15,138 bases of DNA from a virus (IMGVR_UViG_3300010259_000015:1-15138); one strand, 5' to 3'. Shown: positions 1,066 to 15,045, counted from the first letter of the stretch. Made by a program: numbers and translations. The notes: generated from the sequence alone by a model not told the origin.

Positions 1066-1851
1066 TTATGAGTGATTTTTATTTGATGCTTTGTATTCTA
1101 CAACCTTCTTATTGGCGTAAAGGAATTTTGTATATGACAGGAATATAACCAGACCTGAAATGAAATAGATGAGGGATATTATTAATAATGCTTTTTTTTG
1201 GCTGTTATTATCTTTAATCTCCTGACTTAACCATTCCGAGTCCTCCTCGTTTAGCTGTAAGAGCTTATTGCAGGCGATCTCAGGAAGTGTGTCTTTTATA
1301 AATACGTTTCGTAGCCTCTTGCAATCGGCAAGGCTATAAGTTTTATTGAATTCAACTGTTTTATTGTTGAAGGATAAAAGAACTTTGTCACTATAAACAT
1401 AGTACATCATATTTTTATATGGTATGCCTATGGCATCTCTTACTATAGCGGATTGTTTGTTGTGTATATAACATGCGAAGAGAATATAAATAATGCTGGA
1501 CAGAATTACAATTATTGTTTTAATTATGTGTGGTGGTTTTGTTATGTCACCCCAGAAGCGAGTAAGAAAAAAATACGATGTTTTTAGTTTTCCATCAATC
1601 AGCCCCTGCTGTATCATTCTCACATCTTCGATGCCTGATACATTGATTCCGTTAATTATTTTAAATAGTTGAATGTCGCGCCATTTTTTGTCGAGCATTT
1701 TTAACTTTCTGTCTGAATACTCAAAATTGAAATGATGTGCAATAAACCTCATAAGATTACTTTTACCAAAGGTAATAAATGTTAATGCTATTAATAAAAA
1801 TAGATACAAAGAGATAAACCACCGCGCATTAGTCACATTATCACTGAACAT
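1066..1851 (-). CDS. AT-rich cargo (moron) gene encoding a 261-aa predicted three-helix membrane protein of unknown function, at the S/V (orf30) variable locus
   Basis: ATG start at 1851 (minus) preceded by a strong Shine-Dalgarno (GAGGAG, 6-nt spacer); TAA stop at 1066-1068. Strongly AT-rich compared with flanking phage genes; three hydrophobic stretches (approx. residues 11-29, 108-128, 226-248); antisense to the late operons. Confidence 0.75.
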   Translation of the reverse strand: MFSDNVTNARWFISLYLFLLIALTFITFGKSNLMRFIAHHFNFEYSDRKLKMLDKKWRDIQLFKIINGINVSGIEDVRMIQQGLIDGKLKTSYFFLTRFWGDITKPPHIIKTIIVILSSIIYILFACYIHNKQSAIVRDAIGIPYKNMMYYVYSDKVLLSFNNKTVEFNKTYSLADCKRLRNVFIKDTLPEIACNKLLQLNEEDSEWLSQEIKDNNSQKKALLIISLIYFISGLVIFLSYTKFLYANKKVVEYKASNKNHS

Positions 1852-2918: not shown

Positions 2919-3827
2919 ATGCCGATTATCGACCTGAACCAGCTACCCGCACCGGATGTGGTCGAGGAGCTGGACTTTGAAACCATTCTCGCCGAACGCA
3001 AGGCGACACTGATTTCCCTTTACCCGGAAGACCAGCAGGAGGCGGTCGCCCGTACCCTGACGCTGGAATCTGAGCCTCTCGTCAAACTGCTGGAGGAAAA
3101 TGCTTATCGTGAGCTTATCTGGCGTCAGCGTGTGAATGAGGCCGCACGGGCGGTAATGCTGGCCTGTGCCGCCGGTAATGACCTTGATGTGATTGGTGCC
3201 AATTACAACACCACGCGCCTGATTATCACCCCGGCAGATGATTCGACCCTCCCGCCGACACCGGCAGTGATGGAATCTGACACGGATTATCGTCTGCGTA
3301 TTCAGCAGGCGTTTGAAGGTTTAAGCGTTGCCGGGTCGGTGGGTGCCTATCAGTATCATGGTCGCAGTGCCGACGGGCGTGTCGCGGATATCTCTGTCAC
3401 CAGTCCATCTCCGGCCTGTGTCACCATCTCTGTGCTGTCACGTGAAAATAACGGTGTCGCATCCGAAGACCTGCTGGCGGTGGTGCGTAACGCCCTTAAT
3501 GGCGAGGACGTCAGGCCGGTGGCCGACCGCGTGACCGTGCAGTCTGCCGCCATCGTTGAATACCAGATAAACGCCACGCTTTACCTTTACCCTGGTCCCG
3601 AAAGCGAACCCATCCGCGCTGCTGCCGTGAAAAAACTGGAAGCGTACATCACGGCACAGCACCGGCTGGGGCGCGACATCCGTCTGTCTGCCATTTATGC
3701 CGCTTTGCATGTGGAAGGCGTGCAGCGTGTCGAACTGGCTGCACCGCTGGCCGATATCGTGCTTAACAGCACGCAGGCGTCTTTCTGTACCGAATACCGC
3801 GTCGTGACCGGAGGCTCGGATGAGTGA
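2919..3827 (+). CDS. J: Baseplate assembly protein J
   Basis: 302-aa ORF; length and order match P2 gpJ; overlaps I start by 8 nt. Confidence 0.9.
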   Translation: MPIIDLNQLPAPDVVEELDFETILAERKATLISLYPEDQQEAVARTLTLESEPLVKLLEENAYRELIWRQRVNEAARAVMLACAAGNDLDVIGANYNTTRLIITPADDSTLPPTPAVMESDTDYRLRIQQAFEGLSVAGSVGAYQYHGRSADGRVADISVTSPSPACVTISVLSRENNGVASEDLLAVVRNALNGEDVRPVADRVTVQSAAIVEYQINATLYLYPGPESEPIRAAAVKKLEAYITAQHRLGRDIRLSAIYAALHVEGVQRVELAAPLADIVLNSTQASFCTEYRVVTGGSDE

Positions 3828-4360: not shown

Positions 4361-6358
4361 ATGAGCACAAAATTCAGAACCGTTATCACCACTGCCGGTG
4401 CAGCAAAGCTGGCAGCGGCAACCGCGCCGGGAGGGCGGAAGGTCAACATTACCACGATGGCCGTCGGGGATGGCGGTGGTAAATTGCTTGTCCCGGATGC
4501 CGGACAGACCGGGCTTATCCATGAAGTCTGGCGACATGCGCTGAACAAAATCAGCCAGGACAAACGAAACAGTAATTATATTATCGCAGAGCTGGTTATT
4601 CCGCCGGAGGTGGGCGGTTTCTGGATGCGAGAGCTTGGCCTGTACGATGATGCGGGAACGTTAATTGCCGTGGCGAACATGGCCGAAAGTTATAAACCTG
4701 CCCTTGCCGAAGGCTCAGGGCGTTCGCAGACCTGCCGCATGGTCATCATCGTCAGCAGTGTGGCCTCAGTGGAGCTGACCATTGACACCACAACGGTGAT
4801 GGCGACGCAGGATTACGTTGATGACAAAATTGCAGAGCATGAACAGTCACGACGTCACCCGGACGCCTCGCTGACCGCAAAAGGTTTTACTCAGTTAAGC
4901 AATGCGACCAACAGCACGTCTGAAACACTGGCCGCAACGCCGAAAGCGGTAAAGGCCGCCTATGACCTGGCTAACGGGAAATATACTGCGCAGGATGCCA
5001 CCACCGCGCGAAAAGGTCTTGTCCAGCTCAGTAGTGCCACCAACAGCACGTCTGAAACGCTCGCCGCAACACCAAAAGCGGTAAAGGCCGCGTATGACCT
5101 TGCTAACGGGAAATACACTGCACAGGACGCCACCACAGCGCGAAAAGGTCTTGTCCAGCTCAGTAGCGTCACCAACAGCGATTCTGAAACGCTTGCGGCA
5201 ACGCCAAAGGCGGTAAAGGTCGCGTATGACCTTGCTAACGGGAAATACACTGCACAGGATGCCACCACAGCGCGAAAAGGGCTTGTTCAGCTCAGTAGCG
5301 CCACCAACAGTGATTCGGAAACGCTGGCCGCAACACCAAAAGCGGTGAAGTCTGCCTATGACAATGCTGAAAAACGTCTTCAGAAAGATCAGAACGGTGC
5401 GGATATCCCTGATAAAAGATTATTCCTGCGCAATATTGGAGCAACAAATTCAACAACCATGTCTTTTAGTGGTGGTACAGGATGGTTCAGGCTGGCAACT
5501 GTAACCATGCCACAGGCCAGTTCCGTGGTTTACATAAGCCTGATTGGTGGTGCTGGATATAATGTTAACTCCCCTATGCAGGCTGGTATATCTGAACTTG
5601 TTCTTCGTGCGGGAAATGGAAATCCAAAAGGTCTTACTGGTGCGTTATGGCGACGGACCTCGGTTGGATTTACTAATTTTGCATGGGTGAATACATCCGG
5701 TGATACCTATGACATTTATGTAGAAATAGGTAATTACGCCACAGGTGTTAATATCCAGTGGGATTATTCAAAGGATGCAACTGTACAAATTCATACATCA
5801 CCAACTTATACAGCGAATAAACCAACAGGCCTGACAGATGGAACTGTATATGTAATTTACAGTTCGCACATTAAACCGACTGCTGCTGATGTTGGGGCGT
5901 TGTCGTTATCTGGAGGTCAATTGAATGGTGCACTGGGCATTGGAACATCCAGTGCTCTTGGCGGTAACTCGATTGTTTTGGGTGATAATGACACGGGCTT
6001 TAAACAAAATGGCGACGGTAATCTGGATGTTTATGCTAATAACGTTCATGTTATGCGCTTTGTCTCCGGTAGCATTCAAAGTAATAAAACCATAAATATT
6101 ACGGGGCGTGTTAATCCCACAGATTACGGTAACTTTGATTCCCGCTATGTCCGGGATGTCCGGCTTGGTGGTGCTGCCACATACAAACCTGCGAACAATG
6201 GCATGACATGGACACATCAGGCACCGTCCGGGTGTGTATATTCCGGCATTATTGTTCAGGATACCGGCTCAAACTCTGCCGATAACATTGGTGGCGTATA
6301 TTACAGACCGGTTCAGAAATACATTAACGGGACATGGTATAACGTGGCGCAGGTATAA
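4361..6358 (+). CDS. H: Tail fibre protein H (mosaic; conserved N-terminal anchor, repeat-containing shaft, variable distal domain, conserved C-terminal tip)
   Basis: 665-aa ORF with SD GAGGAAG upstream; N-terminus MSTKFRTVITTAGAAKLAAATAPGG... and C-terminus ...YRPVQKYINGTWYNVAQV match the P2 H termini as recalled; followed 3 nt later by G. Confidence 0.9.
   Translation: MSTKFRTVITTAGAAKLAAATAPGGRKVNITTMAVGDGGGKLLVPDAGQTGLIHEVWRHALNKISQDKRNSNYIIAELVIPPEVGGFWMRELGLYDDAGTLIAVANMAESYKPALAEGSGRSQTCRMVIIVSSVASVELTIDTTTVMATQDYVDDKIAEHEQSRRHPDASLTAKGFTQLSNATNSTSETLAATPKAVKAAYDLANGKYTAQDATTARKGLVQLSSATNSTSETLAATPKAVKAAYDLANGKYTAQDATTARKGLVQLSSVTNSDSETLAATPKAVKVAYDLANGKYTAQDATTARKGLVQLSSATNSDSETLAATPKAVKSAYDNAEKRLQKDQNGADIPDKRLFLRNIGATNSTTMSFSGGTGWFRLATVTMPQASSVVYISLIGGAGYNVNSPMQAGISELVLRAGNGNPKGLTGALWRRTSVGFTNFAWVNTSGDTYDIYVEIGNYATGVNIQWDYSKDATVQIHTSPTYTANKPTGLTDGTVYVIYSSHIKPTAADVGALSLSGGQLNGALGIGTSSALGGNSIVLGDNDTGFKQNGDGNLDVYANNVHVMRFVSGSIQSNKTINITGRVNPTDYGNFDSRYVRDVRLGGAATYKPANNGMTWTHQAPSGCVYSGIIVQDTGSNSADNIGGVYYRPVQKYINGTWYNVAQV
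4880..5365 (+). repeat. In-frame 132-bp (44-aa) tandem repeat, about 3.6 copies, within H shaft region
   Basis: Repeat starts at 4880, 5012, 5144 and 5276 (period exactly 132 nt); peptide unit KGLVQLSSATNSTSETLAATPKAVKAAYDLANGKYTAQDATTAR with a few substitutions per copy; fourth copy diverges after about 30 aa. Confidence 0.9.
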
Positions 6359-6361
6359 TTT

Positions 6362-6889
6362 ATGCAGCATTTGATAAATATAACGGTGGGTAATCCAAAA
6401 ACGGTTGAACAATATCAATTGACAAAGGGCTTTGATGTTGTCTGGTTTTTTTCAGAAGATGGTAAGAACTGGTACGAAGAACAAAAGTATTTTGCTGATG
6501 ACACGATAAAAATAGCGTACGACAAAGATAATATTATCCGCTATGTGGAAAAGGATGTGACAGCTATCAGACCAGATGGATTAAGTGTTGTTGAAGTGCC
6601 GGATATTACCGCTAACCGACGGGCGGACATTTCAGGGAACTGGATGTTTAAAGACGGCACAGTGATTAAACGAATTTATACGGCGGAGGAATTGCAGCAG
6701 CAGGCAGAAAATCGGAAAGCCAGACTTCTTGCAGATGCTGAATCCGTGATTTTGCCGCTGGAGCGTGCTGTCAGGCTGAATATGGCAACAGATGAGGAAC
6801 ACAGCCGACTGGAGGCTTGGGAACGCTATAGCGTTCTGGTCAGTCGTGTGGATCCTGCAAATCCTGAATGGCCGGAAATGCCGCAATAA
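6362..6889 (+). CDS. G: Tail fibre assembly chaperone G
   Basis: 175-aa ORF immediately after H; C-terminus ...[13 protein letters not shown] is typical of P2-type tail fibre assembly proteins. Confidence 0.88.
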
Positions 6890-7267
6890 GTTGTATGAGC
6901 TCTGGTGGGAGCTTACATATCTATGGCGCAGAGTAAAGCCTAATCTGACAGTTCGCTCTGTGCCAGAAGCAGACGTTGCGAACATCGAGGTGTATTAATC
7001 AACGGGGAGCTGGTCACAACTATTCGGTTTATAAACATTTTTTTCGCTTTTCTGCATTAGAGACTATTGCATTAACTGGCTAAACTATGGATGATTATTG
7101 GTGTTAGGTTGCCAATGAATTAAGGATTAACTTCTGAACTCTCTGGTTAATCTAAAAGGAATATATGTGTATCATTTTACTTTGGCTGATAATTGAGAAC
7201 AGGCTGTCAACCTATAAATTAGAAAGGTTAAATTAACTGTGTTTTCTTGGATTTACTAAGGATGAAT

Positions 7268-7888
7268 ATGGCTAAGCCTGAAATTAAATATGACAATCCT
7301 GAATTGGATGTAAATTATGATTATGTCGGAATTGTTGACGGTTTAAGTTGTGACGACAGGAAAGAATTTGGCATCACAACTGAGCTGGGAAATTTGCTGA
7401 GAAGTGCGCAATTACCTGTAAAAGAGGCGCTAGTAAATACTAAGCAGGAGCTTCTTGATGCGTTAAGCACATTCCTTAAAGATGCTATGAATGGTCAGCG
7501 TTTCATGCTCCATTTTGTAGCTCATGGAAACGAAAAAGGAATACAAATTGGTACTGACTTTGTGACTTGGGATATTTTACGTCCGCATTTGCAAGAAATC
7601 AATGTAGCAACGGAACGAACACTACTTTTGAATATGAGTACGTGTAAAGGTCTTCATGGAGTTAAGATTGTCGGTGGGAATGGTGAGTATCCTTTTTTTG
7701 GTTTAATTGGTGCGAAAGATGATTTATATGTGATTGATGCGCTAAATGCAAATAAAATAATGTATTGCAAGTGGCTTGATAACCTACCAGTTCAAAAGAT
7801 TGTTCCCGAGACAAATGCGGAACTTGGTAAGGACGTTTTGTTTAATATTTCATCTGAAGGGTTTAGGAAATTAACTAACCCTGAGTGA
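7268..7888 (+). CDS. AT-rich cargo gene at the G/FI (Z/fun) hotspot: ~206-aa protein with caspase-like (clan CD cysteine peptidase) His/Cys dyad motifs; function unknown, candidate anti-phage/exclusion factor
   Basis: ORF track starts at a TTG (7247); the ATG at 7268 follows an AAGGA Shine-Dalgarno (7257-7261) with a 6-nt spacer (an ATG at 7262 is also possible). Motifs hydrophobic strand + HG (FMLHFVAHGNEKGIQIGTD) and, 40 residues later, hydrophobic strand + C-x-G (TLLLNMSTCKG), resembling caspase SHG...GIxYGTDG and QACxG signatures. Strongly AT-rich island. Confidence 0.7.
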   Translation: MAKPEIKYDNPELDVNYDYVGIVDGLSCDDRKEFGITTELGNLLRSAQLPVKEALVNTKQELLDALSTFLKDAMNGQRFMLHFVAHGNEKGIQIGTDFVTWDILRPHLQEINVATERTLLLNMSTCKGLHGVKIVGGNGEYPFFGLIGAKDDLYVIDALNANKIMYCKWLDNLPVQKIVPETNAELGKDVLFNISSEGFRKLTNPE

Positions 7889-8073
7889 CACTTTTTCTTT
7901 CACTCATAATAATTATCAAATAGTGGATGGATTTGATGGAAATTAAGTACTTAGTCTGGTGGGATGTGTGTAAGATTAACTTCCGCTCCTCGCCCAAAGC
8001 AGACTGTCAGATTTGATAGTGTTTCGGCTATGTAAATAGTCAGTCGGAAAATGAGTTTGTACAAATCAGGACA

Positions 8074-8100
8074 GGCGGGCGAATTGCCCGCCTTTTCTTT
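8074..8100 (+). terminator. Rho-independent terminator downstream of the cargo gene / V-operon
   Basis: GC-rich hairpin GGCGGGC-gaatt-GCCCGCC (8074-8092) followed by the T-run TTTTCTTT (8093-8100). Confidence 0.8.
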
Positions 8101-8197: not shown

Positions 8198-9388
8198 ATG
8201 AGTGACTATCATCACGGCGTGCAGGTGCTGGAGATTAACGACGGCACCCGCGTCATTTCCACCGTATCCACGGCCATTGTCGGCATGGTCTGCACGGCCA
8301 GCGATGCGGATGCGGAAACCTTCCCCCTCAATAAACCGGTGCTGATTACCAATGTGCAGAGCGCAATTGCAAAGGCCGGTAAAAAAGGCACGCTGGCGGC
8401 GTCGTTACAGGCCATCGCAGACCAGTCAAAACCGGTCACCGTTGTTGTGCGCGTGGAAGACGGCACCGGCGACGACGAAGAAACGAAACTCGCGCAGACC
8501 GTTTCCAATATCATCGGCACCACCGACGAAAACGGTCAGTACACCGGACTGAAAGCCCTGCTGGCGGCGGAGTCGGTAACCGGTGTTAAACCGCGTATTC
8601 TCGGCGTGCCGGGACTGGATACCAAAGAGGTGGCTGTTGCACTGGCATCAGTCTGTCAGAAGCTGCGCGCTTTCGGGTATATCAGCGCATGGGGCTGTAA
8701 AACCATTTCTGAGGTGAAAGCCTACCGCCAGAATTTCAGCCAGCGTGAGCTGATGGTCATCTGGCCGGATTTCCTCGCATGGGATACGGTCACCAGTACC
8801 ACCGCCACCGCGTATGCCACCGCCCGTGCGCTGGGGCTGCGCGCTAAAATCGACCAGGAGCAGGGCTGGCATAAAACGCTGTCCAATGTCGGGGTGAACG
8901 GTGTTACCGGCATCAGCGCATCTGTATTCTGGGATTTGCAGGAGTCCGGCACCGATGCTGACCTGCTTAACGAGTCAGGTGTCACTACGCTGATTCGCCG
9001 TGACGGTTTCCGCTTCTGGGGTAACCGTACCTGCTCTGATGACCCGCTGTTCCTCTTTGAAAACTACACCCGCACCGCGCAGGTGCTGGCCGACACGATG
9101 GCTGAGGCGCACATGTGGGCGGTGGACAAGCCCATCACCGCAACGCTGATTCGCGACATCGTTGACGGCATCAATGCCAAATTCCGTGAGCTGAAAACAA
9201 ACGGCTATATCGTGGATGCGACCTGCTGGTTCAGCGAAGAATCCAACGATGCGGAAACCCTCAAGGCCGGAAAACTGTATATCGACTACGACTATACACC
9301 GGTGCCTCCTCTTGAAAACCTGACCCTGCGCCAGCGTATTACCGATAAATACCTGGCAAATCTGGTCACCTCGGTTAACAGCAATTAA
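8198..9388 (+). CDS. FI: Contractile tail sheath protein FI
   Basis: 396-aa ORF; length and order match P2 gpFI; SD GGAG 8 nt upstream. Confidence 0.92.
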   Translation: MSDYHHGVQVLEINDGTRVISTVSTAIVGMVCTASDADAETFPLNKPVLITNVQSAIAKAGKKGTLAASLQAIADQSKPVTVVVRVEDGTGDDEETKLAQTVSNIIGTTDENGQYTGLKALLAAESVTGVKPRILGVPGLDTKEVAVALASVCQKLRAFGYISAWGCKTISEVKAYRQNFSQRELMVIWPDFLAWDTVTSTTATAYATARALGLRAKIDQEQGWHKTLSNVGVNGVTGISASVFWDLQESGTDADLLNESGVTTLIRRDGFRFWGNRTCSDDPLFLFENYTRTAQVLADTMAEAHMWAVDKPITATLIRDIVDGINAKFRELKTNGYIVDATCWFSEESNDAETLKAGKLYIDYDYTPVPPLENLTLRQRITDKYLANLVTSVNSN

Positions 9389-14902: not shown

Positions 14903-14929
14903 AAAAAATAAGCCCGTGTAAGGGAGATT
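14903..14929. other. P2-type attachment core (attR) AAAAAATAAGCCCGTGTAAGGGAGATT; prophage/host junction
   Basis: Exact 27-mer that I recall as the P2 att core; lies 100 bp after ogr and coincides with the terminator hairpin and U-tail of cyaR on the opposite strand. Confidence 0.6.
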
Positions 14930-14989
14930 ACACAGGCTAAGGAGGTGGTTCCTGGTACAGCTAGCATTTTATGGGTTATGTTTTTCAGC
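14903..14989 (-). ncRNA. cyaR: CyaR (RyeE) Hfq-dependent sRNA, CRP-cAMP activated
   Basis: Minus-strand sequence GCTGAAAAACATAACCCATAAAATGCTAGCTGTACCAGGAACCACCTCCTTAGCCTGTGTAATCTCCCTTACACGGGCTTATTTTTT matches the E. coli CyaR sequence as recalled, including the conserved CCACCTCCTT anti-SD-like seed and the 3' terminator hairpin plus U-run. Confidence 0.8.
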
Positions 14990-15045
14990 GAAACGGATGA
15001 TAACCTTAATAAATGCAGCTGTATGTGATCGGTTTCTAAGAATTT
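14990..15045 (-). promoter_or_regulatory. cyaR promoter with class II CRP site (TGTGA-N6-TCTAA on + strand at 15024-15039)
   Basis: CRP half-site TCACA (minus strand) centred about 42 bp upstream of the inferred +1 at 14989; TATCAT-like -10 on the minus strand; consistent with the known CRP dependence of cyaR. Confidence 0.5.

What the first reader, a model, noticed from the sequence alone, without database searches (positions are those of the whole stretch)
7247..7888. Minimal caspase-like (clan CD) His-Cys protein encoded by an AT-rich moron at the P2 G/FI (Z/fun) hotspot
A single ~206-aa gene sits in a strongly AT-rich island inserted exactly between tail fibre assembly gene G and the FI late operon, the classic P2 moron position. 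Numbering from the ORF-track protein, it has a hydrophobic strand followed by His93-Gly (RFMLHFVAHGNEKGIQIGTD) and, 40 residues later, another hydrophobic strand followed by Cys133-x-Gly (TLLLNMSTCKG). This order, spacing and local context (HG-x-E-x-GI-x-x-GTD, then xxC-x-G) closely resemble the caspase catalytic dyad signatures (SHGDKGIIYGTDG ... QACxG). The protein is far smaller than typical bacterial caspase-like/CHAT proteins and has no recognisable sensor or effector partner, so it could be a stand-alone protease acting on a phage or host target, or a degenerate allele of Z/fun. I cannot tell from sequence whether it is identical to the reference P2 Z/fun product.
Basis: partly seen in the sequence, partly recalled or inferred. 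Interest (0 to 1): 0.85.

Follow-up and report, generated by a model that had tools for sequence, protein, structure and literature searches.

The report
Stand-alone mini caspase-like protease in P2 prophage
A P2-type prophage carries, in its known accessory-gene slot between the tail-fibre and tail-sheath genes, a 206-residue protein that is just the bare catalytic core of a caspase-type cysteine protease, with no partner gene; it is a good untested candidate for a one-gene phage-defence or counter-defence protease.

Summary
The protein is not Fun(Z).

No Pfam, NCBIfam or PADLOC model captures the family. NCBI already labels this exact protein 'caspase family protein'. I found no paper that characterises it.

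In 21 independent loci no neighbouring gene recurs, so it is solitary. It travels as a promoter-plus-gene cassette in prophages, plasmids and islands rich in defence candidates.

Fold and an intact dyad are near certain. Function is inferred: most likely a prophage-borne defence protease (about 0.45), with counter-defence as the main rival. The find is moderately interesting, a new variant of a known kind.

The parts
6942..6977 (.). Left arm of a 36-nt imperfect inverted repeat; the last stretch of P2 backbone before the cargo
   Evidence: the repeat finder I1, 78% complementary to 7978-8013. P2 homology ends here. The boundary is the same in other P2-like prophages that carry different cargo.
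6978..7977 (.). AT-rich cargo island (G+C 0.36) that replaces the 2.1-kb fun(Z) cassette of P2
   Evidence: Composition; alignments to P2 NC_001895.
7164..7996 (+). Portable cassette made of about 100 bp upstream, the gene and about 110 bp downstream. It is shared at 92% identity with a non-P2 locus in Leclercia/Atlantibacter.
   Evidence: blastn of the window against L009/L010. A further shared piece at 6950-7016 abuts it there, so the window carries about 147 extra bases (7017-7163).
7193..7220 (+). Sigma-70-like promoter candidate (TTGAGA-16-TAAATT) inside the portable upstream region
   Evidence: Consensus scan, 9 of 12 matches. The region is conserved in L009. Function not shown.
7258..7262 (+). 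Shine-Dalgarno AAGGA, five bases before ATG 7268
   Evidence: Read from the sequence.
7268..7888 (+). CDS of the 206-aa caspase-like (clan CD) protein: 23.0 kDa, pI 5.1, no transmembrane segment
7523..7528 (+). Codons for His86-Gly87 (His93 in the 213-aa ORF numbering), just after strand 3 (residues 79-84)
   Evidence: His kept in 182/183 and Gly in 180/183 relatives. Aligned to the caspase SHG motif and to the CHAT GHG motif.
7643..7651 (+). Codons for Cys126-Lys-Gly128 (Cys133 in ORF numbering), just after strand 4 (residues 120-124)
   Evidence: Cys kept in 183/183 and Gly128 in 181/183 relatives. Aligned to caspase-3 QACRG and to CHAT NAC.
7884..7906 (+). Weak hairpin overlapping the stop codon (UGAGUGA...UCACUCA), with no U-run after it
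   Evidence: RNA fold centroid. Not picked up by the terminator scan.
7978..8013 (.). Right arm of the inverted repeat; P2 backbone resumes here
   Evidence: A 28-nt copy also occurs in Pectobacterium L006 at 3741-3768.
8073..8093 (+). Strong terminator-like hairpin plus T-run in the conserved backbone. It is the first convincing stop for transcripts that run through the cargo.
   Evidence: Terminator scan, 9 pairs of which 7 are G-C; conserved in P2.

Best explanation
The gene encodes a soluble cytoplasmic cysteine protease of clan CD (the caspase-hemoglobinase fold), reduced to the bare catalytic core: six strands, five helices, a His86/Cys126 dyad and no sensor, pro-domain or partner.

It moves between prophages, plasmids and genomic islands as a self-contained cassette of about 0.83 kb (own upstream region plus gene). 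In E. coli it occupies the Z/fun accessory slot of P2-like prophages.

The most likely role is defence borne by a mobile element. On this reading the lysogen makes the protease from the cassette's own promoter. The enzyme stays harmless, either through narrow specificity or through a latent state (monomer, or occlusion by its own N-terminal segment). On infection by another phage it cleaves one or more host or phage proteins and stops that phage.

Shown here: the gene, the cassette and its position, the fold, the conserved dyad, purifying selection, solitariness, and defence-type neighbourhoods. Inferred: catalytic activity, expression in the lysogen, the anti-phage role, and the trigger and substrate.
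For: Fold:
- AlphaFold model with pLDDT 94.2 and pTM 0.90.
- Foldseek agrees.

Dyad:
- His follows strand 3 and Cys follows strand 4.
- HMM alignments place His on the caspase SHG motif and place both residues on the CHAT GHG and NAC motifs.
- hhalign puts H86 on H121 and C126 on C163 of caspase-3 in one 89-column alignment.
- His is kept in 182/183 and Cys in 183/183 relatives.

Selection: dN/dS is 0.30 against the Leclercia copy.

Solitary: across 21 loci only the caspase-like gene itself recurs. No TIR or other partner was found.

Defence context:
- Neighbours match PADLOC candidates PDC-S06, PDC-S31, PDC-S47 and PDC-S51, an Aga-REase-like protein and HNH/REase.
- P2 fun(Z) at this same slot blocks T5 growth (P2 annotation).
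- Three validated defence systems have been mapped to this same P2 locus (10.1101/2022.05.12.491691).

Precedent: caspase-like proteases execute immunity in type IV Thoeris (10.1101/2024.10.24.620036).

Cassette: the upstream 100 bp, which holds a promoter-like site, travels with the gene.
Against: - No experiment or direct assay exists, and the family is absent from PADLOC v2.
- Guilt by association is weak evidence, and counter-defence genes share the same mobile-element hotspots.
- The gene points the same way as the late tail operons, and no convincing terminator separates it from G. It could therefore be a late lytic gene rather than a lysogen-expressed one.
- A sensor-less protease has no obvious way to detect infection.
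- The 3D superposition of the dyad side chains could not be measured, because model coordinates are not exposed.
- The family is rare. It was found in 15 of 185,579 species genomes, in none of 5,426 complete E. coli genomes, and in none of the INPHARED or IMG/VR phage records.
Confidence: 0.45

Rival explanations
1. Counter-defence protease. The phage or mobile element makes the enzyme during lytic growth or transfer to cut and disable a host immune protein (for example an effector or sensor of an abortive-infection system), which protects the element that carries it.
For: The gene is carried by a prophage, a plasmid and a mobilisable element, where it sits right after the relaxase. It is co-oriented with the V and F late operons and no strong terminator follows G, so late read-through to the hairpin at 8073 is plausible. 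The lack of a sensor is easier to explain for an enzyme with one fixed target. Phage proteins of the same fold exist in BFVD (Myoviridae sp. ctWaE18, E 2.3e-9).
Against: Relatives also sit in chromosomal islands beside defence candidates. The cassette brings its own upstream region. The slot is documented for defence cargo. No relative was found in 50,697 phage records or 2.9 million viral contigs, which is odd for a phage counter-defence gene.
Confidence: 0.22
2. An orphan effector whose activator is encoded elsewhere. It would be a caspase-like executioner that responds to a signal or protease made by an unlinked host system, such as a TIR, CBASS or CRISPR type III pathway or an upstream CHAT protease.
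For: Known bacterial caspase-like effectors need an upstream activator: N7-cADPR from TIR in type IV Thoeris, and SAVED-CHAT cleavage of PCaspase. The best structural match is SAVED-CHAT. Relatives of about 290 aa carry an extra C-terminal region of about 90 aa, which this protein lacks.
Against: The protein has no domain that could bind a signal, and it has only about 19 residues between Cys126 and strand 5, so it lacks a caspase-type linker to be cut. Its scattered distribution on mobile elements across phyla argues against dependence on a particular host pathway. No TIR or cyclase lies within 5 kb in any locus.
Confidence: 0.13
3. Not a conflict-system protease at all. It could be a toxin or effector of interbacterial competition, a lysogenic-conversion factor acting on another target, or a clan CD enzyme with transpeptidase or ligase chemistry.
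Against: There is no signal peptide or transmembrane segment. No Hcp, VgrG, PAAR or Rhs neighbours occur in any locus. The DUF4347 and Tce1 similarities are far weaker than those to CHAT and the caspases.
Confidence: 0.08

Closest known systems
CHAT-domain proteases of bacterial immunity (SAVED-CHAT of type III CRISPR, PDB 8tl0; also Csx29 TPR-CHAT and DdvA)
   Different: CHAT proteins are large (about 480 to over 1,000 aa) and fused to SAVED, TPR or other sensor domains, and they work inside multi-gene systems. This protein is 206 aa and solitary. The Pfam CHAT model does not capture it: the best hit is E 0.057, in one of 10 distant relatives scanned, and CHAT is not among the hits at E <= 0.01 for 133 members.
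Caspase-like effector of type IV Thoeris (PsCaspase; Rousset et al., 10.1101/2024.10.24.620036)
   Same: A bacterial caspase-family protease used against phages. Its catalytic Cys is at a similar position (C129 against C126). The gene is small and found in E. coli and other Proteobacteria.
   Different: PsCaspase is encoded next to a TIR gene and has a C-terminal domain thought to bind N7-cADPR. Here there is no TIR within 5 kb in any locus and no C-terminal domain. Direct sequence comparison was not possible because the PsCaspase sequence is not held.
Caspases, metacaspases and orthocaspases (MEROPS C14, Pfam PF00656)
   Different: The score is below the Pfam gathering threshold (17.1 against 21.4 bits). 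There is no p20/p10 linker, no pro-domain and no CARD or DED. P1 specificity is unknown.
Fun(Z) and other cargo of the P2 Z/fun hotspot
   Same: Same slot between G and FI, the same backbone breakpoints, and AT-rich non-essential cargo.
   Different: The protein is unrelated to Fun(Z), which is 528 aa, lies on the opposite strand and gives BLASTP E 0.51.
Solitary relatives of about 290 aa with weak legumain (Peptidase_C13) matches
   Same: Same core with invariant H, C, W101 and the PFxG motif, at profile E down to about 1e-22. They are also solitary and sit in integrase or restriction-type islands.
   Different: They carry a C-terminal extension of about 90 aa with a conserved FFMxDxxPENxxRF motif, which the window protein lacks.

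Membership tests
Clan CD cysteine peptidases (caspase-hemoglobinase fold) | Alpha/beta/alpha sandwich with a six-stranded sheet that matches solved clan CD structures | tested here: met
Clan CD cysteine peptidases (caspase-hemoglobinase fold) | Catalytic His (His-Gly) after strand 3 and catalytic Cys after strand 4, both conserved | tested here: met
   Strand 79-84 is followed by H86-G87 and strand 120-124 by C126. Both align with the dyads of caspases and CHAT. They are kept in 182/183 and 183/183 relatives. The side-chain geometry in 3D was not measurable with these tools.
Clan CD cysteine peptidases (caspase-hemoglobinase fold) | Peptidase activity that depends on the dyad | not testable with these tools
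   Needs an enzyme assay with H86A and C126A mutants.
Peptidase_C14 (caspase/metacaspase, Pfam PF00656) | Score at or above the Pfam gathering threshold | tested here: not met
   17.1 bits against a cut-off of 21.4, E 0.0046, covering only residues 46-98 of the ORF. Only 4 of 133 relatives match at E <= 0.01.
Peptidase_C14 (caspase/metacaspase, Pfam PF00656) | p20/p10 organisation with an inter-subunit linker after the catalytic Cys | tested here: not met
   Only about 19 residues, including a short helix, separate C126 from strand 5 at residue 145.
CHAT domain (Pfam PF12770) | Score at or above the Pfam gathering threshold | tested here: not met
   The window protein gives no CHAT hit. One of 10 distant relatives scanned gives E 0.057, or 13.3 bits against a cut-off of 24. 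Even so, CHAT is the best structural and profile neighbour.
Peptidase_C13 (legumain, Pfam PF01650) | Score at or above the Pfam gathering threshold | tested here: not met
   No hit for the window protein. Two distant relatives just pass, at 24.6 and 23.4 bits against 22.8, and 16 of 133 match at E <= 0.01.
Type IV Thoeris | A TIR-domain gene adjacent to the caspase-like gene (at most one gene between them) | tested here: not met
   The flanking genes in the window are tail genes G and FI. No TIR was found among neighbours scanned with Pfam. No neighbour recurs across 21 loci.
Type IV Thoeris | A C-terminal (putative signal-binding) domain on the caspase-like effector | tested here: not met
   The protein ends about 10 residues after strand 6, and the whole chain is the core fold.
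Type IV Thoeris | A match to the caspase-like profile used to define the system | not testable with these tools
   Neither the PsCaspase sequence nor the DefenseFinder profile is held.
P2 Fun(Z) | Sequence similarity to P2 Fun(Z) (NP_046777) | tested here: not met
   Best BLASTP E is 0.51. Fun(Z) is 528 aa and lies on the opposite strand.
Known or candidate defence families in PADLOC-DB v2 | A match to any PADLOC model | tested here: not met
   No family matched at E <= 10.
Gasdermin-associated caspase-like proteases | A gasdermin gene adjacent to the protease gene | tested here: not met
   No gasdermin or any other recurrent neighbour was found.

The most novel reading that the evidence does not exclude
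A 206-residue caspase core is by itself a complete immune system. It would both detect infection (for example by binding a phage protein, or being cut by one, so that it dimerises or its active site is unmasked) and execute the response by proteolysis. That would make it the smallest self-contained caspase-type defence known. The long-standing question of how a caspase fold can be switched on without adaptor domains would then become directly testable in E. coli.
Probability: 0.25. Interest if true: 0.78.

Novelty: new variant of a known kind. Interest (0 to 1): 0.55.

Why it matters
Caspase-family proteases are now known to execute bacterial immunity. Every characterised case, however, depends on a sensor domain or a partner: TIR, SAVED, TPR, a gasdermin substrate or STAND NTPases.

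This family is the catalytic core alone. It is conserved with an intact dyad, spreads on mobile elements across phyla, and in E. coli sits in a prophage slot already proven to hold defence genes.

If it protects cells, it would show how little is needed to regulate a caspase, and it would add a one-gene system to defence catalogues that currently miss it. If it is instead a phage counter-defence protease, it would be a new class of anti-immune enzyme. Either outcome can be tested with a cassette of under 1 kb and two point mutants.

Tried and rejected
- **Z/fun allele:** rejected. The protein is unrelated to P2 Fun(Z).
- **Known family membership:** Pfam gave only sub-threshold C14 and DUF4347 hits. 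NCBIfam gave only spurious hits. PADLOC gave nothing. PHROGs gave only a weak match to an unannotated family.
- **Phage collections:** tblastn against INPHARED and a pattern scan of IMG/VR found no relative. No complete E. coli genome carries the island.
- **Partner gene:** Pfam scans of unannotated neighbours found no TIR or cyclase. Clustering of neighbours across 21 loci found no recurrent family. The only repeat is DUF3800 (PDC-S51) downstream in two loci.
- **Type IV Thoeris link:** the PsCaspase sequence could not be obtained, because no supplements are held.
- **Late-promoter test:** a strict TGT-N12-ACA search found nothing near the gene. It also missed P2's own annotated pV and pF sites, so the test is uninformative.
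- **RNA element in the island:** no Rfam match at E <= 1.
- **Small downstream ORF at 7927-8016 (29 aa):** rejected, because it is interrupted by a stop in the L009 copy.
- **AFDB fold search:** the library was unavailable.
- **S1-pocket or specificity prediction:** not attempted beyond noting an acidic residue at position 24 in 166/183 relatives, because model coordinates are not exposed.

Full report
**What is in the sequence**

The window is a P2-type prophage segment, about 95% identical to P2 over 85% of its length. Against P2 NC_001895 the gene order is R, S, orf30, V, W, J, I, H, G, FI, FII, E/E', T, U, D, ogr.

- Between G (6362-6889) and FI (8198-9388) there is one substantial ORF, 7247-7888 on the + strand.
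- The TTG-initiated ORF is 213 aa. An AAGGA Shine-Dalgarno at 7258-7262 sits five bases before ATG 7268, and all homologues start at that methionine. The product is therefore 206 aa.
- G+C is 0.36 for 6978-7977, against 0.51 and 0.56 for the flanks.

**It is a moron at the Z/fun slot, but not Z/fun**

Alignment with P2 shows that backbone homology stops at about 6977 and resumes at 7978. P2 has a 2.1-kb cassette there that encodes Fun(Z), which is 528 aa and lies on the minus strand. The two proteins are unrelated (best BLASTP E 0.51).

Other P2-like prophages break at the same two points and carry yet other cargo (L022 and L023). The locus is described in the literature as a second diversity and defence hotspot of P2-like phages (10.1101/2022.05.12.491691; 10.1101/2024.10.15.618418).

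**Fold**

Sequence searches alone were weak but consistent.
- Pfam Peptidase_C14 gave E 0.0046 and 17.1 bits, below the gathering score of 21.4.
- A profile of 33 family members hit only caspases in the PDB (E 0.23-1.3), with His86 on the catalytic SHG motif.

An AlphaFold2 model built on that alignment is confident, with mean pLDDT 94.2 and pTM 0.90.
- Foldseek agrees, with 8tl0 at 2.4e-6 and caspase-7 at 3.5e-6.

**Catalytic dyad**

In the model the order of elements is: strand 3 (79-84), His86-Gly87, a hairpin (91-94 and 97-100), a helix (101-114), strand 4 (120-124), then Cys126-x-Gly128. That is the clan CD arrangement.

- A broad family profile aligns LHFxxHG and NMxxCxG with ILHFIGHG and LVVLNAC of the CHAT domain in a single alignment.
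- hhalign of the family profile against human caspase-3 places H86 on H121 and C126 on C163 in one 89-column alignment (E 0.0028).
- Among 183 relatives, including representatives down to about 20% identity, His86 is kept in 182, Cys126 in 183, Trp101 in 183, Gly87 in 180 and Gly128 in 181.
- dN/dS against the 92%-identical Leclercia/Atlantibacter copy is 0.30.

I could not measure the 3D geometry of the two side chains, because model coordinates are not exposed.

**How minimal, and how alone**

An exhaustive profile search found 2,433 clusters at E <= 1e-3. Among the best 150, lengths range from 66 to 362 aa and are mostly 200-300 aa. A subgroup of about 290 aa adds a C-terminal extension of about 90 aa with an FFMxDxxPENxxRF motif.

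No Pfam, NCBIfam or PADLOC model captures the family.

Contexts of family members are varied:
- the P2 slot in E. coli, in all 24 contigs read for the identical protein;
- a lambdoid prophage in Aeromonas;
- a Pectobacterium chromosomal island;
- a Leclercia/Atlantibacter locus, between PDC-S06 and PDC-S31 candidates;
- an integrase/IS110 island with Abi_alpha, which matches PDC-S47;
- a mobilisable element, beside DUF4365 and Mrr-type nucleases.

When I clustered all ORFs of 21 loci, only the caspase-like protein recurred. DUF3800 (PDC-S51) follows it in two loci. No TIR domain was found.

The family is rare and patchy. It occurs in 15 of 185,579 species genomes, spread over Cyanobacteria, Deltaproteobacteria, Bacteroidota, Rickettsiales, Ignavibacteria, Providencia and one archaeal MAG. 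It was absent from 5,426 complete E. coli genomes and from two phage collections.

**The cassette**

The window and the non-P2 loci L009/L010 share 7164-7996 at 92% identity. This stretch comprises about 100 bp upstream, with a promoter-like TTGAGA-16-TAAATT at 7193-7220, the gene, and about 110 bp downstream. They also share 6950-7016. The gene therefore moves together with its own upstream region.

No convincing terminator lies between G and the gene. The first strong one is the backbone hairpin at 8073-8093. Late read-through from the V operon is thus possible in addition to autonomous expression.

**What it most likely does**

The fold and an intact, selected dyad make a cysteine peptidase by far the most likely chemistry (about 0.9).

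For the biological role I favour defence carried by the mobile element (about 0.45). The reasons are:
- the slot holds fun(Z), which blocks T5 growth (P2 annotation), and three validated systems have been mapped to the same locus;
- neighbours elsewhere are defence candidates;
- caspase-like proteases are proven immune executioners in bacteria (10.1101/2024.10.24.620036).

How a sensor-less enzyme is held in check is unknown. Narrow specificity, activation by dimerisation, or masking by the conserved N-terminal segment (residues 1-18, which have lower pLDDT) are guesses.

The rivals are:
- a counter-defence protease made by the element (0.22);
- an orphan effector that needs an unlinked activator (0.13);
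- an unrelated role such as an interbacterial toxin or ligase chemistry (0.08).

**Comparison with what is known, and novelty**

Structurally the protein is nearest to CHAT proteases. By name and topology it is caspase-like. It fails the HMM thresholds of the C14, CHAT and C13 families, and it lacks the TIR neighbour and C-terminal domain that define type IV Thoeris.

NCBI already labels this exact sequence 'caspase family protein [Escherichia coli]'. It is seen on 32 contigs, and a sister allele on 155. The fold assignment is therefore not new.

Full-text searches found no paper that characterises the family or a solitary minimal caspase in defence.

I rate it a new variant of a known kind and moderately interesting (0.55). 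It is a cheap, well-defined candidate whose outcome would be informative either way.

Noticed in passing
window 6942-6977 and 7978-8013; also L001 (P2), L009/L010, L006 3741-3768: A 36-nt imperfect inverted repeat (78% complementary, arms 1,000 nt apart) brackets the Z/fun hotspot exactly at the points where P2 backbone homology ends and resumes. Parts of both arms accompany the caspase cassette in a non-P2 locus. A 28-nt copy of the right arm lies 2.2 kb from the divergent caspase-like gene of Pectobacterium. It may be a split intergenic hairpin that serves as a cargo-exchange site.
   Followed up: partly
window 7017-7163: About 147 AT-rich bases upstream of the cassette are present in the window and in E. 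coli L002 but absent from the Leclercia/Atlantibacter copy, where 7016 abuts 7164. No ORF or Rfam match was found.
   Followed up: no
window 7268-7888 compared with L002 6001-6621: The two P2-borne alleles differ at four codons, all non-synonymous (V113A, G138R, N139I, D190N), with no synonymous change. The numbers are too small to test.
   Followed up: partly
window 1066-1851 (minus strand): A second AT-rich moron (G+C 0.32) encodes a 261-aa protein at the same position as P2 orf30. It matches phrog_2407 of unknown function at full length. It has no PADLOC match and no long flanking inverted repeat.
   Followed up: partly
window 4907-5362, within tail-fibre gene H (4361-6358): There are 3.5 tandem copies of a 132-nt (44-aa) unit at 89% identity in the tail fibre. 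The distal part of H and gene G have lower G+C (0.41-0.45), and H differs in length between otherwise near-identical prophages (665, 709 and about 750 aa). This is consistent with swapping of receptor-binding modules next to the hotspot.
   Followed up: partly
window 14906-14991 (minus strand): A full-length CyaR/RyeE sRNA (100.7 bits) lies just beyond ogr. The right end of the window is therefore probably the prophage-chromosome junction.
   Followed up: no
L006 6700-7812 and L028 3534-4646: In Pectobacterium and Providencia the divergent caspase-like gene is followed, about 85 bp downstream on the same strand, by a DUF3800 protein that matches PADLOC candidate PDC-S51 (E 4e-106). This may be a two-gene unit in that branch.
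   Followed up: partly
L007 5341-5736: An Imm63 (polymorphic-toxin immunity) gene lies directly upstream of the caspase-like gene in one Pectobacterium carotovorum genome, but was not called in the near-identical metagenome contig.
   Followed up: no
L012 3985-4899 and L017 7289-7867: Ion_trans_2 (potassium-channel-like) genes lie next to, or a few genes from, the caspase-like gene in two unrelated loci. They did not cluster together by BLASTP, so this is probably coincidence.
   Followed up: no
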